35,130 nt of DNA from a virus (Duplodnaviria > Heunggongvirae > Uroviricota > Caudoviricetes). Within the stretch, counting starts at the first letter, position 1. Each line of letters opens with the position of its first letter. Where the stretch lies: the IMG/VR virus record IMGVR_UViG_2740892229_000022; one strand, 5' to 3'. The position numbers are program-made. Shown here in pieces: positions 12,001 through 15,000 of the stretch.

Positions 12001-15000
12001 GATTGAACAGATCAATATCGCCCTTGAACATAAAGGTTCCGGTAACTTTTCAGCGTGGGTTATTGAAGCCTGCAGGAGAAGGCTGGCAACAGATGCAACG
12101 CATCTGCGTCCGGCCAGCATGACAAATAACGAGAAATGAACGTTCGGTTACAGGAGCGGGTACCCACTGTCCTCCAACAATATTTCATCTTCATACCCGG
12201 CGGAACAAGACTTACCCAGCCGGAATGTACAGAATAACAACAGAGTGATAATTAATTTCTGATGAAATAATCAGGGTGCAGAAGGACTAAAGATAAACGT
12301 TTTCTTCACGCCTTTACGCGGCCTGTCCTTCTCAAATCGCCATTTTGCCATCGCCTTTACAACCTGCTCATCAAACAGATGGTGCGGCTCTGAACGGATA
12401 AACTCAATTCGGGTGACAGTACCATCAGCACCAATATCAAACTTCACATCAACCCGTCCCTTTATATAATTTGCCGCTGCATAGGCCGGATATTGTGGTA
12501 ATGCCTTAACCAACTGTCGGGGCATATCTGTTTTATGTTGCGTACAGCCCATAACCAGAGAAGACAACAAAATAATTAACGGAAGATTTCTTTTCATTTT
12601 CATTCCCGGCACAGATAAGAATAAGTCTTATTCTAACAATGCCACCCTGTCGGCCATCAATCCTCTGCTTAATGGCAACGACAATTATCCGACTTAAATC
12701 ACAAATCAGACACATGACATAACAGGTCTTGCGAGGTAACACATCGTCCGGTTTCTTCCACCATCGCACCGAACCAGCGACCATGAGGGGACAACGCCGC
12801 GCTCCGTTAACGCGGTAAACCCCGGTGTGTATNNNNNNNNNNTTCCTGCCAGTTCTGAATGGTACGGATACTCGCACCGAAAATGTCAGCCAGCTGCTTT
12901 TTGTTGACTTCCATTGTTCATTCCACGGCCAAAAACAGAGAAAGGAAACGACAGAGGCCCAAAAGCTCGTTTTCAGCACCTGTCGTTTCCTTTCTTTTTA
13001 GAGGGTATTTTAAATAAAAACATTAAGTTATGACGAAGAAGAACGGAAACGCCTTAAACNNNNNNNNNNAAGGCCAAAAAGCCCGTTTTCAGCACCTGTC
13101 GTTTCCTTTCTTTTCAGGGGGTATTTTAAATAAAAACATTAAGTTACGACGAAGAAGAACGGAAACACCTTAAACCGGAAAATTTTCATAAATAGCGAAA
13201 ACCCGCGAGGTCGCCGCCCCGTAACCTGTCGGATCACCGGAAAGGACCCGTAAAGTGATAATGATTATCATCTACATATCACAACGTGCGTGGAGGCCAT
13301 CAAACCACGTCAAATAATCAATTATGACGCAGGTATCGTATTAATTGATCTGCATNNNNNNNNNNTTTTCAGCACCTGTCGTTTCCTTTCTTTTCAGGGG
13401 GTGTTTTAAATAAAAACATTAGGTTACGGCGAAGAAGAACGGAAACGCCTTAAACCGGAAAATTTTCATAAATAGCGAAAACCCGCGAGGTCGCCGCCCC
13501 GTAACCTGTCGGATCGCCGGAAAGGACCCGCGAAAATGATAATGGTTATCAGTTGCAGCAAATCCAGTTTCTTCCACCATCGCACCGGACCAGCGACCAT
13601 GAGGGGACAACGCCGCGCTCCGTTTACGCGGTAAACCCCGGTGTGTATCGTTTTTGATTATCCCCGCACACTCGCGCAGAGTAGTCTCCCTGTCGGGCTG
13701 CGGTCTCTGTTAATGAGGGAATACAGCGACGATACGGCGCATCAGCAAAACTTAGTTCAGGCACTGAGTGCGGATATAGTCCTGTGCCCCTTCCAGCTGC
13801 TTCTGCATTGTCATCAACCGTTCTCTGAGGATGAAATAATCCCGTGTAACGGTGTCTGCCAGTTGGGGGCCGGTTGCATTATCCACGCGGGCGGTGCCGG
13901 TGGCTTCACGCACGGGACCTGGACAGGTGGCGTTGATCCGCAGGCTGCGGTGACCAGCGGCAACGTCAGCGCGAAGAGTTTCATTTTCAGCTCTCGCATC
14001 GGCTAATTCCCTCGAGTATCTGGCATCAAGTGCAGCAACATCACGCTGGCGCTGCTGCATATCAGTAATGGTTGCATTTGCCAGCTCCAGCTCACTGACT
14101 TTTTTATCGCGCTGCTCTTTGTAGGTTATGGCGTTATCACGGTAATGATTCAGCCCCAGACTAAGCGCACCACAGGCCACCAGCAGGGCAATGATGACCA
14201 CGCACAGTACGCGGTTCATTTCACCACCAGCGTATCTGACCGATGAAATAACCGGAGGCCATAATCACAAACACCCGCCAGATAAGAATGAACTTCCAGG
14301 TAGATAATTTTTCAGCCATCACTCGAATCTCCCGAATCAGTTTGCTAAAATCAAACACACTTTCTCCTTTGACTTTTCCAGAGTCAGGAAACACAAAACC
14401 CCGCTTGCAGCCAACAAACGGGGTTTTTACTTTTATTCACTTAGTTTTTGTCAGTTCGCAGGATTTCGTGTTATCCGTCCGTGTGAGCAAACCTCATTTT
14501 TCAGCAAAATATTCTTCTTATCTGTCGATTCCCCAGCACGCCAGCGCGCTCTCCTGGTCACGACGGGATACCTGACCGTAACAGTTGTTTGAACGGATAC
14601 GGCAGTCTCTGCCACCGTCCTTAATCNNNNNNNNNNTCATGAAACAATCTTGTTGACTTTATTCACTTACATTTTGCCAGTTCGCAGGATTTCGTGTTGT
14701 CTACCCGCGTTGGCCAACGTCATTTTTCAGCAAAATATTCTGCTTACCTGTCGATACCCCAGCATGCCAGCGCACTCTCCTGGTCACGTCTTGATACCTG
14801 ACCGTAACAGTTGTTTGAACGGATACGGCAGTCTCTGCCACCGTCCTTAATCCACCAGCGAATCGCCTCACACGCTCCCCTGCGATCGCCTGCATTAAGC
14901 CGCTTATAAAACGTCGACGGGAAACACTTACCGGGGCCAATGTTATAGGGGCAAAATGACGCGATACCTGCTTTTTGTGGCTCGGTCAGTGGAACTTTTA

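What the first reader, a model, noticed from the sequence alone, without database searches (positions are those of the whole stretch)
14221..14429. Endolysin and Rz separated by a hairpin and a 32-aa hydrophobic ORF
In lambda, R and Rz are adjacent. Here the interval holds a hairpin with flanking A/T runs (14395-14429) and a 32-aa ORF (MAEKLSTWKFILIWRVFVIMASGYFIGQIRWW) whose stop lies 1 nt before the Rz ATG. It could be a small membrane protein co-expressed with the spanins, or chance.
Basis: seen in the sequence. Interest (0 to 1): 0.35.

Follow-up and report, generated by a model that had tools for sequence, protein, structure and literature searches.

The report
Mobile small-membrane-protein cassette with antisense control
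The hairpin and small reading frame between the phage endolysin and Rz genes are not chance: they form a compact, widely travelled gene cassette for a 45-residue membrane protein of unknown function, kept under tight control and probably gated by a small antisense RNA.

Summary
The 32-aa ATG frame is its C-terminal part.

It matches PHROG 6632 (unknown function) over its full length. It is under purifying selection (pN<pS in 171/171 pairs). The same DNA fills the R/Rz gap in at least 870 of 5426 complete E. coli genomes.

The hairpin, a second small leader hairpin that occludes the ribosome site, and the ORF travel together as a ~210-bp unit. The unit sits in many different late-operon positions:
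- after three kinds of endolysin;
- after baseplate, tape-measure and tail-K genes;
- next to portal genes.
Hosts include Enterobacterales, Pseudomonas, Haemophilus and marine phages. It is therefore not a spanin partner as such.

Both hairpins covary. Synonymous sites at codons 3-5 and 12 are frozen. On the opposite strand they spell a sigma-70 promoter (TCG..-N17-TGnTAnnnT). This promoter persists, even as perfect TGnTATAAT, in distant relatives whose amino acids differ there. I therefore predict a ~77-nt cis-antisense RNA (about 14358-14434, + strand) that ends at the same bidirectional hairpin.

The protein's function is unknown, and neither RNA nor protein expression could be tested.

The parts
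14518..14626 (-). 3' fragment (last 36 codons plus stop) of an R21-type lysozyme gene. It is the first sequence of the contig that carries the cassette, directly after the N10 gap at 14627-14636.
   Evidence: the intact gene is in this position in NZ_CP027355
14428..14517 (-). 90-nt 3' flank of the endolysin gene. It is shared with prophages that carry a different insert in this gap. Homology to those breaks at ...GTGAATAAA(A)G, just before the hairpin.
14395..14427 (.). Hairpin AAAACCCCGTTTG-loop-CAAGCGGGGTTTT with a U-rich tail on both strands. It is the 5' boundary element of the cassette, a bidirectional intrinsic-terminator shape.
   Evidence: covariation (13 pairs, 8 with changes on both sides); equal stability on both strands across 28 variants
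14363..14391 (-). Leader stem-loop. UUUCC pairs with GGAGA (the Shine-Dalgarno sequence) around an inner stem UGACU/AGUCA, -7.6 kcal/mol.
   Evidence: The inner stem is kept with at least 6 different sequences and many different loops. On its own in the window it is not better than shuffles (z -0.72).
14221..14358 (-). Gene for the 45-aa protein (GTG start, AAGGAG at 14364-14369, stop TGA 14221-14223): MFDFSKLIREIRVMAEKLSTWKFILIWRVFVIMASGYFIGQIRWW.
   Evidence: PHROG 6632, E 5e-28, 1-45/45; annotated as WP_000459347.1; family alignments; purifying selection; structure
14317..14319 (-). It is invariant in close relatives and has GGAG 9 nt upstream. A second start giving a 32-aa form is possible.
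   Evidence: Not universal in distant members. Inferred only.
14323..14351 (+). Predicted promoter on the strand opposite the ORF: -35 TCGAAT (14323-14328), 17-nt spacer, TG (14343-14344), -10 TAAAAT (14346-14351).
   Evidence: Prediction from conservation; no expression data.
14358..14434 (+). Predicted cis-antisense RNA of about 77 nt. It is complementary to the start codon, the Shine-Dalgarno sequence and the leader hairpin, and ends at the hairpin plus UUUUUACUUUU.
   Evidence: (fold -21.9 kcal/mol, z -4.2). Ends are approximate. Inferred.
13752..14219 (-). Rz i-spanin gene. Its ATG lies 1 nt after the stop of the small ORF, so coupling is possible. Rz1 is embedded at 13814-13999.
14744..15277 (-). 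Full-length R21-type (SAR-like) lysozyme on the neighbouring contig of the scaffold, with the phage 21-type holin at 15282-15497. This is context only and is not contiguous with the cassette in this assembly.

Best explanation
The interval holds one self-contained cassette of about 210 bp that has been inserted between the endolysin and Rz genes. Read along the late-gene strand, it has five parts:
1. a strong hairpin with U-tracts on both sides;
2. a short U-rich leader whose UUUCC pairs with the Shine-Dalgarno sequence around a small inner hairpin;
3. a GTG start;
4. a 45-codon gene for a tail-anchored inner-membrane protein (cytoplasmic amphipathic helix, then one transmembrane helix ending in RWW);
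5. a stop codon that abuts the next gene's ATG.

The cassette has no promoter of its own on that strand. The protein can therefore only be made from read-through of the Q-antiterminated late transcript, and then only weakly (occluded ribosome site, non-AUG start).

On the opposite strand, the first 12 codons encode a sigma-70 promoter. From it, a small RNA of roughly 77 nt would run back over the start codon, the ribosome site and the leader hairpin, and stop at the big hairpin. This RNA would pair with the mRNA leader, probably starting loop-to-loop, and block translation until late transcripts outnumber it.

What is shown:
- the gene is real and under protein-level selection;
- the unit moves as a block among late operons;
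- both hairpins covary;
- synonymous sites are frozen exactly where the antisense promoter lies.

What is inferred:
- the antisense RNA is made;
- the hairpin terminates transcription;
- the protein is membrane-active and harmful if mistimed.

The protein's own job is not known. My guess is a late-acting membrane effector, such as lysis timing or exclusion.
For: Protein:
- PHROG 6632 full-length match.
- 82 clusters at 90% identity and 72 at 50%, all 24-95 aa, none part of a larger protein.
- pN<pS in 171 of 171 pairs, and only this frame is open.
- Helix-break-helix model, pLDDT 81.

Cassette:
- The alignment of window, SPN3UB, Rac-SA53, SEN34 and Pseudomonas YMC11 shows homology starting about 10 nt before the hairpin and ending at the stop codon, in unrelated surroundings.
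- Contexts are listed.
- SEN34 and SPN3UB have Q-type antiterminators upstream of the operon.

Structure:
- 96% of cells are paired, 12 of 18 pairs have changes on both sides, 0 of 500 shuffles reach this, and slid controls give 31-62% paired.
- The Shine-Dalgarno sequence is paired in the minimum-energy fold of about 13 of 19 leaders.

Antisense promoter:
- Third-base entropy is 0 at codon 4 (xxT), Ser5 (AGC 19/19) and Arg12 (CGA 19/19), against 0.6-2.0 bits at almost all other degenerate codons (Asp3, Glu10 and codon 21, 0.3, are the exceptions).
- TCG-N3-N17-TGC-TAnnnT is present in 19 of 19 protein-found variants, against 0.9% of synonymous resamplings.
- Distant members with other residues there keep it or improve it: TGATATAAT, TGGTATAAT, TGCTATAAT, and TTGATA-N17-TAAAAT.
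- In the one P2-like, non-Q context (L116), the sense terminator and leader hairpin have decayed, but the antisense promoter, hairpin and a U5CU6 tail are intact.
Against: - No transcript or protein data for any member. Rfam has no family here. The Hfq-CRAC list for E. coli O157 Sakai has no RNA at such a site, but the two Sakai prophages I inspected (Sp10, Sp15) carry a different insert in this gap; the rest of that genome was not checked.
- The -35 is weak (TCGAAT/TCGCAA, 3 of 6), and the simple promoter scan did not call it.
- Frozen codons near a start could partly reflect translation-initiation constraints.
- The outer leader stem uses G-U pairs that exist only on the mRNA strand. The leader structure is therefore selected in the mRNA whatever happens on the other strand.
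- The covariation alignment was fitted to the model structure.
- The loci were selected with a DNA pattern that contains the promoter bases. Only protein-found loci count for that test.
- A strong terminator inside an operon is costly unless antitermination holds. I checked this in only three phages.
Confidence: 0.6

Rival explanations
1. A protein-only accessory gene. This is a moron-like small membrane protein whose upstream hairpin is just a transcription terminator and RNA-stabilising element on the late strand. No antisense RNA is made. The frozen synonymous sites reflect the needs of translation initiation at a weak GTG start.
For: - The leader stem-loop with mRNA-specific G-U pairs and the U-rich tract are classic mRNA features.
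- The window hairpin is more stable on the gene strand (-21.6 against -14.2).
- The -35 match is poor.
- There is no known RNA family here.
Against: - Initiation constraints do not explain an invariant rare CGA at codon 12, nor AGC rather than AGU/UCU at codon 5.
- They also do not explain why relatives with different residues re-create a perfect TGnTATAAT at the same place on the other strand.
- Across 28 variants the hairpin is equally stable on both strands (-23.4 against -22.8), with U tails on both.
- In L116 only the antisense side is preserved.
Confidence: 0.25
2. A dedicated lysis-cassette component. The small protein would be an antiholin, releasin-like or spanin-associated factor that works specifically with the pinholin / SAR endolysin / Rz set and is translationally coupled to Rz.
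For: - The stop is 1 nt before the Rz ATG.
- The slot after the endolysin is used repeatedly, with at least three unrelated endolysin types: R21-type lysozyme, GH19 and P2-like.
- Another small TM ORF (PHROG 4906) occupies the same slot in Sakai.
- Met14 with an upstream GGAG could give a dual-start pair, as in holins.
Against: - SEN34 has lysin and Rz adjacent, and carries the cassette in its baseplate region instead.
- Other copies lie after tape-measure, tail-K, tail-tube, portal and Mu-F-like genes.
- There is no similarity to any holin, antiholin or lysis family in Pfam, NCBIfam or PHROGs lysis categories.
- A late lysis role is still possible from any late-operon position, so this rival concerns the function and is not fully excluded.
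Confidence: 0.12
3. A chance open frame next to an ordinary terminator.
For: - Short ORFs of this size are common: the list for 12500-16500 has 67 ORFs of 20 aa or more.
- The window leader hairpin alone is not better than shuffles.
Against: - Frame, length and hydrophobic pattern are conserved down to about 30-45% identity.
- dN/dS is well below 1.
- There is a full-length PHROG match.
Confidence: 0.01

Closest known systems
Phage P22 sar RNA / ant (immI region)
   Same: A small (68/69 nt) antisense RNA made from the strand opposite a phage gene pairs with that gene's mRNA and inhibits synthesis of its product (review PMC12197685). From my own recollection of Liao/Wu/Susskind 1987, the sar promoter lies at the start of ant and the RNA covers its ribosome-binding site. 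That is the same geometry as predicted here.
   Different: - There is no sequence or Rfam similarity.
- The regulated product here is a 45-aa membrane protein, not an antirepressor.
- The unit here is mobile among late operons.
- The antisense RNA here is only predicted.
Type I toxin-antitoxin loci (hok/sok, symE/symR)
   Same: - A small hydrophobic protein under 60 aa.
- A translation start buried in mRNA structure.
- An antisense promoter inside the first codons, with the RNA covering the ribosome site.
- A terminator hairpin on the antisense RNA.
The comparison rests on general knowledge of these systems.
   Different: - There is no toxin promoter. The sense strand has a terminator where a promoter would be.
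- There is no homology to Hok, Ldr, TisB, Ibs, Sho, Zor or DinQ in my recollection, and no Pfam or NCBIfam hit.
- Toxicity is untested.
Morons, in particular HK97 gene 15
   Same: - An extra small gene present in some relatives and absent in others at the same junction.
- HK97 gp15 is a small inner-membrane protein encoded between the tail assembly chaperone and tape-measure genes (PMC3594210). That is exactly where the cassette sits in L114/L115.
   Different: - Morons carry their own promoter upstream and terminator downstream, for expression from the prophage. This unit has the terminator upstream, no sense promoter, and a stop abutting the next ATG.
- gp15 is a YebO-family protein. The Pfam scan of this ORF found no family at all.
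Small membrane proteins of lysis cassettes (P2 LysA between K and lysB; Mu releasin gp25; S21 pinholin/antiholin pair)
   Same: A membrane protein encoded between the endolysin and the Rz-like gene, made late. A dual start is possible.
   Different: - No sequence relationship.
- The position is not fixed to lysis cassettes.
- The comparison rests on my knowledge of those systems and was not tested here.
PHROG 4906 small TM ORF (ECs_1966/ECs_5741 of E. coli O157 Sakai)
   Same: A 43-48-aa hydrophobic ORF directly upstream of Rz in the same R/Rz gap. It occurs in tandem after a PHROG 6632 ORF in another E. coli allele.
   Different: - Unrelated sequence.
- In Sakai it follows an antirepressor gene rather than a hairpin.
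- It is also uncharacterised.

Membership tests
PHROG 6632 (phage protein family of unknown function) | Significant full-length match to the family profile | tested here: met
   E 5e-28, residues 13-57 of the 57-codon frame against profile 1-45/45. The Pseudomonas and SEN34 forms match the same profile.
Moron (Juhala/Hendrix sense) | Extra DNA present at a junction where related phages have adjacent genes | tested here: met
   K-12 Qin has rrrQ and rzpQ overlapping. SEN34 has lysin and Rz adjacent. Sakai has another insert.
Moron (Juhala/Hendrix sense) | Own promoter upstream of the gene | tested here: not met
   No promoter-like site on the gene strand. The roughly 45 nt between hairpin and start are filled by the U-tract, the leader hairpin and the Shine-Dalgarno sequence.
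Moron (Juhala/Hendrix sense) | Own terminator downstream of the gene | tested here: not met
   The stop is 1-3 nt from, or overlaps, the next ATG in 8 of the 24 loci inspected and is 7-23 nt from it in six more. The hairpin is upstream.
Moron (Juhala/Hendrix sense) | Expression from the repressed prophage | not testable with these tools
   No expression data available.
Type I toxin-antitoxin system | Small (<60 aa) hydrophobic protein with a transmembrane helix | tested here: met
   45 aa; helix 20-43 is hydrophobic.
Type I toxin-antitoxin system | Antisense RNA gene (promoter plus terminator) overlapping the translation start of the toxin mRNA | tested here: inconclusive
   A conserved promoter-like element and terminator lie on the opposite strand, but no transcript evidence was available.
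Type I toxin-antitoxin system | Toxin transcribed from its own promoter as a stable mRNA | tested here: not met
   No sense promoter is found within the conserved unit. A terminator lies there instead.
Type I toxin-antitoxin system | Toxicity on over-expression, neutralised by the RNA | not testable with these tools
   Needs an experiment.
Holin / antiholin / lysis accessory protein | Homology to a known lysis family | tested here: not met
   No Pfam, NCBIfam or PADLOC hit. The only PHROG hit is an 'unknown function' family.
Holin / antiholin / lysis accessory protein | Consistent location in the lysis cassette | tested here: not met
   Also found in head, tail and baseplate modules.
Holin / antiholin / lysis accessory protein | Dual-start motif giving two products | tested here: inconclusive
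   Met14 is invariant in close relatives, with GGAG/GAGG 9 nt upstream, but it is replaced in some distant members.
Intrinsic (Rho-independent) terminator | G+C-rich stem followed by a U-tract | tested here: met
   Met on both strands. Actual termination was not testable.

The most novel reading that the evidence does not exclude
This is a previously undescribed family of phage-borne, antisense-RNA-gated small membrane toxins: type I toxin-antitoxin-like units without a toxin promoter. They plug into any junction of a Q-antiterminated late operon. The antisense RNA keeps the protein off in the lysogen and early in infection, late read-through overwhelms it, and the variable kissing loops give each allele its own specificity. 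The protein would then act as a late membrane effector, for example a lysis-clock modifier or a block to secondary infection.
Probability: 0.35. Interest if true: 0.75.

Novelty: new variant of a known kind. Interest (0 to 1): 0.55.

Why it matters
The unit is common. The same DNA fills the R/Rz gap in at least 870 of 5426 complete E. coli genomes, Shiga-toxin phages among them. Relatives occur in Salmonella, Enterobacter, Pseudomonas aeruginosa (about 500 contigs for one variant) and Haemophilus influenzae (hundreds of contigs). Yet it is annotated as hypothetical, or not annotated at all.

If the antisense RNA is real, this would be a compact, portable expression-gating device for a membrane protein. 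It would also be a new class of small RNA made on the strand opposite phage late operons. Both predictions are directly testable with one Northern blot and a few silent mutations.

Knowing what the protein does could bear on lysis timing, and hence toxin release, in Stx phages.

Tried and rejected
1. The R-to-hairpin spacer or the hairpin might be a known EHEC phage sRNA (AgvB, AsxR, other EcOnc RNAs). Rejected: the anti-sRNAs lie at the PR' moron site. No EcOnc peak lies at such a unit, and the Sakai prophages Sp10 and Sp15 carry a different insert in this gap. EcOnc11 lies downstream of Rz. EcOnc22 is in the tail I/J gap and is unrelated.

2. Rfam at gathering and at E<=10 gives nothing but weak terminator-like matches.

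3. Pfam, NCBIfam and PADLOC give no hit.

4. A plus-strand promoter CTGACC-N18-CATAAT found by the scan inside the ORF is not conserved in homologues.

5. A sense-strand promoter in or around the hairpin: none found.

6. I expected G-U asymmetry to show which strand the big hairpin serves. A first look suggested the mRNA strand, but over 28 variants the two strands are equally stable, so this is uninformative.

7. Pairing between codons 5-6 and 11-12 as an explanation for the frozen codons is not kept in the window-type allele.

8. Literature searches for the protein accession, and for an ORF between R and Rz, found nothing.

9. The loci from the DNA-pattern scan were not used for the promoter test, because the pattern pre-selects those bases.
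Full report
**What is in the window.** All genes discussed here lie on the minus strand.
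- A phage 21-type holin (15282-15497) and an R21-type lysozyme (14744-15277) are followed by an N10 gap (14627-14636).
- After the gap come a second, 90%-identical copy of the last 36 lysozyme codons (14518-14626), a 90-nt flank, a hairpin (14395-14427), a small open frame ending at 14221, and Rz/Rz1 (13752-14219, 13814-13999).
- The window is therefore a scaffold of contigs from several similar lambdoid prophages. It also carries stx2A/B.
- The flank of the full-length lysozyme follows a different variant of the R/Rz gap than the contig with the hairpin.
- The arrangement lysozyme - small ORF - Rz is nevertheless genuine. The 527 nt from 14100 to 14626 occur at 100% identity in complete genomes, where PGAP annotates lysozyme, a 45-aa hypothetical protein (WP_000459347.1) and the Rz 'lysis protein'.
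- At least 870 of 5426 complete E. coli genomes hold 80% or more of this stretch. So do many Stx1a, Stx2a and Stx2c phages and H-19B, where the ORF is usually not annotated.

- The hairpin has 14 pairs (-21.6 kcal/mol on the gene strand, -14.2 on the other; 0 of 200 shuffles fold as well), with A- and T-runs that make it terminator-shaped in both directions.
- The 32-aa ATG frame exists, and its stop is 1 nt from the Rz ATG.
- The conserved gene starts 13 codons earlier, at GTG 14358, five nt after AAGGAG.
- The 45-aa product matches PHROG 6632 ('unknown function') over the whole 45-position profile at E 5e-28.
- Pfam, NCBIfam and PADLOC have nothing.

**It is a real protein-coding gene.**
- Word-indexed and exhaustive profile searches find 82 clusters (90% identity) and 72 clusters (50% identity). 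All are 24-95 aa, all are 'hypothetical', and none is part of a larger protein.
- They come from Escherichia, Salmonella, Enterobacter, Citrobacter, Klebsiella, Yersinia, Edwardsiella, Pantoea, Brenneria, Sodalis, Providencia, Pseudomonas aeruginosa, Haemophilus influenzae, Canicola and marine metagenomes.
- Among 19 diverse DNA copies found through protein searches, pN<pS in 171 of 171 pairs. dN/dS is typically 0.05-0.26, and every other frame is full of stops.
- The shared pattern is x-D-F-S-K-L-I-R-E-L-R-x-M-x-E-K-L-P-x-W-K/R-F, then a hydrophobic stretch, often ending in R-W-W.
- AlphaFold2 gives helix 4-17, a break, and helix 20-43 (pLDDT 81). The positive charges sit N-terminal to the hydrophobic helix. 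By inference, this is a tail-anchored inner-membrane protein with its N-terminus in the cytoplasm.

**The hairpin and the ORF are one mobile unit.**
- tblastn against phage records showed the same protein at 87% identity in Rac-SA53, and at 60-64% in Salmonella phages. There it lies after a baseplate gene, not in the lysis cassette. It also appears at 48% identity in a Pseudomonas phage, among tail genes.
- Aligning the DNA shows that homology begins about 10 nt before the hairpin (AAAGCRAAA) and ends at the stop codon. The surroundings are unrelated.
- Further loci give the same picture. The unit lies in these positions:
  - after R21-type lysozymes (E. coli, SPN3UB, Citrobacter), after a GH19 endolysin (Enterobacter), and in a P2-like lysis region (Salmonella);
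  - after baseplate V-like genes, after a tape-measure gene, between the tail chaperone and the tape measure, after lambda K-like and tail-tube-like genes;
  - between portal and protease-capsid genes (H. influenzae), next to Mu-F-like and scaffold genes, and in a podovirus-like contig. One contig has two copies flanking the portal gene.
- It always lies on the late-gene strand, and its stop usually lies within a few nt of the next ATG.
- SPN3UB and SEN34 have Q-type antiterminators ahead of the operon. That explains how a strong terminator can be tolerated inside it.
- In SEN34, lysin and Rz are adjacent and the unit sits in the baseplate region. The protein is therefore not a spanin partner as such.
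- In E. coli O157 Sakai, the same R/Rz gap instead holds an antirepressor gene plus an unrelated 48-aa TM ORF (PHROG 4906). Another E. coli allele has the same hairpin with a different leader, a diverged PHROG 6632 ORF and a PHROG 4906-like ORF in tandem. The gap is thus an exchange site.

**RNA structure.**
- A covariance model built from 16 copies and re-aligned on 38 distinct copies gives 96% paired cells. Twelve of 18 pairs have changes on both sides (for example A-U, G-C and C-G at one position), 0 of 500 shuffles reach this, and slid controls give 31-62% paired. The caveat is that the alignment is fitted to the model.
- The second, small hairpin lies just 5' of the Shine-Dalgarno sequence. 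It keeps its place with at least six different stem sequences (CCUUG/CAAGG, CCUG/CAGG, CAUG/CAUG, CGUUA/UAACG, UGACU/AGUCA in the window, and two forms with the Shine-Dalgarno in the loop) and with a dozen different 6-7-nt loops.
- Around it, UUUCU/UUUCC from the U-tract pairs with GGAGA of the ribosome site, partly through G-U pairs. As a result, the Shine-Dalgarno sequence is paired in the minimum-energy fold of about 13 of 19 leaders, including the window (-7.6 kcal/mol).
- Together with the GTG/TTG start in most copies, this points to deliberately low or conditional translation.

**The opposite strand.**
- Among the 19 protein-found copies, third-base entropy is zero at codon 4 (always xxT), Ser5 (always AGC) and Arg12 (always the rare CGA). 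It is about 0.3 at Asp3 (GAT) and Glu10 (GAG). Almost all other degenerate codons show 0.6-2.0 bits; codon 21 (mostly Trp, 0.30) is the exception. The neighbouring Arg9 uses four codons.
- Read on the other strand, these bases are TCG(−35)-N3-N17-TG-n-TAnnnT. This is present in 19 of 19 copies, against 0.9% of synonymous resamplings.
- The strongest test came from distant relatives whose residues differ at that spot. MDYIKL gives TGATATAAT, MNYTKL gives TGGTATAAT, MKNYSKL gives TGCTATAAT, and the Pasteurellaceae form gives TTGATA-N17-TAAAAT/TAAACT.
- A promoter there would start an RNA at about the start codon (window about 14358, + strand). The RNA would run over the ribosome site and the small hairpin and end at the big hairpin, which has a U-tail on that side too (UUUUUACUUUU in the window). 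Its length would be roughly 77 nt, with a fold of -21.9 kcal/mol, z -4.2.
- Over 28 variants the big hairpin is equally stable on both strands.
- In the single P2-like context, where no Q antitermination is expected, the sense terminator has a mismatch and a short U-tail and the leader hairpin is gone. The antisense hairpin, a U5CU6 tail and the antisense promoter remain intact there.
- The variable loops on a constant stem are what one expects of loop-loop recognition between an antisense RNA and its target.

**What I conclude, and how sure I am.**
- It is settled that the gene is real, that the hairpin belongs to it, and that the unit is a mobile insert of late operons rather than a lysis-specific gene.
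- It is probable (about 0.6) that the unit also encodes a cis-antisense RNA that gates translation. In geometry this resembles P22 sar/ant, hok/sok or symE/symR.
- It is unknown what the protein does. The triple throttle (terminator, occluded ribosome site, non-AUG start, plus the likely antisense RNA) suggests a product that is harmful if mistimed. A late membrane effector that tunes lysis or blocks secondary infection is my best guess. HK97 gp15, a small inner-membrane exclusion protein encoded at one of the very same junctions, is a precedent. Nothing here tests that guess.
- The unit fails the moron definition on promoter and terminator placement, and it fails the type I TA definition on the toxin promoter. 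I therefore file it as a new variant, not as a member of either.

**Limits.**
- No expression data could be consulted.
- The two prophages of the one EHEC strain with Hfq-CRAC data (Sakai) that I inspected, Sp10 and Sp15, carry a different insert in this gap.
- The sequences compared are related, so counts such as '19 of 19' are not independent trials. At least eight lineages have saturated synonymous divergence.
- The window allele carries Arg28 inside the hydrophobic helix where most E. coli copies have Leu. That position is variable in the family (L, Q, S, T, A, I), so I do not read it as inactivation.

Noticed in passing
window 8790-8799, 11636-11645, 12833-12842, 13060-13069, 13356-13365, 14627-14636, 17471-17480, 18253-18262; repeats 12747-12832/13563-13648, 12955-13059/13071-13175/13351-13455, 13086-13250/13366-13530, 14432-14626/14658-14852: The window is a scaffold joined by N10 runs. 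Near-duplicate (81-97%) contig ends lie next to each other. These look like paralogous pieces of several lambdoid prophages placed in series, so gene order across the gaps cannot be trusted.
   Followed up: partly
window 18954-20194 (-), 18665-18879 (-), 20288-20536 (-), 27913-28101 (-): stx2 A (319 aa, RIP domain) and B (89 aa) genes. An STnc100 sRNA match lies just downstream, three tRNA genes lie upstream, and C4 antisense RNA and isrK matches lie in the early region.
   Followed up: partly
L111 1056-1771 and L112 2749-3464 (E. coli O157 Sakai Sp10, Sp15); L214 (IMG/VR contig): The R/Rz gap is an exchange site. Sakai prophages carry an antirepressor gene plus an unrelated 48-aa hydrophobic ORF (PHROG 4906, unknown function) directly before Rz. 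Another E. coli allele has the same hairpin, a diverged PHROG 6632 ORF and a PHROG 4906-like ORF in tandem.
   Followed up: partly
window 14275-14277 (codon 28 of the small ORF): The window allele has Arg (CGG) inside the hydrophobic helix where most E. coli copies have Leu (CTG). The same allele occurs in five complete genomes.
   Followed up: partly
window 13536-13660 and 12729-12832; L111 2300-2420: A repeated segment lies just downstream of Rz. In Sakai Sp10, the abundant Hfq-bound RNA EcOnc11 (Tree et al. 2014, Table S2) maps to this neighbourhood on the strand opposite the late genes.
   Followed up: no
L239 1190-1430 (Sakai Sp15, gap between tail genes I and J): Another small ORF flanked by hairpins. 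The ~85-nt Hfq-dependent sRNA EcOnc22 maps to the opposite strand there. The sequence is unrelated, but the arrangement may be analogous.
   Followed up: no
L243 898-1038 and 2625-2765: One metagenomic phage contig carries two diverged copies of the cassette, one on each side of the portal gene. Each copy has a perfect TGnTATAAT on the opposite strand.
   Followed up: partly
L116 2400-2640 (Salmonella P2-like prophage): This copy is in a phage type not expected to use Q antitermination. The sense-strand terminator and leader hairpin have decayed and the start is ATG, while the opposite-strand promoter, hairpin and long U-tail are intact.
   Followed up: partly
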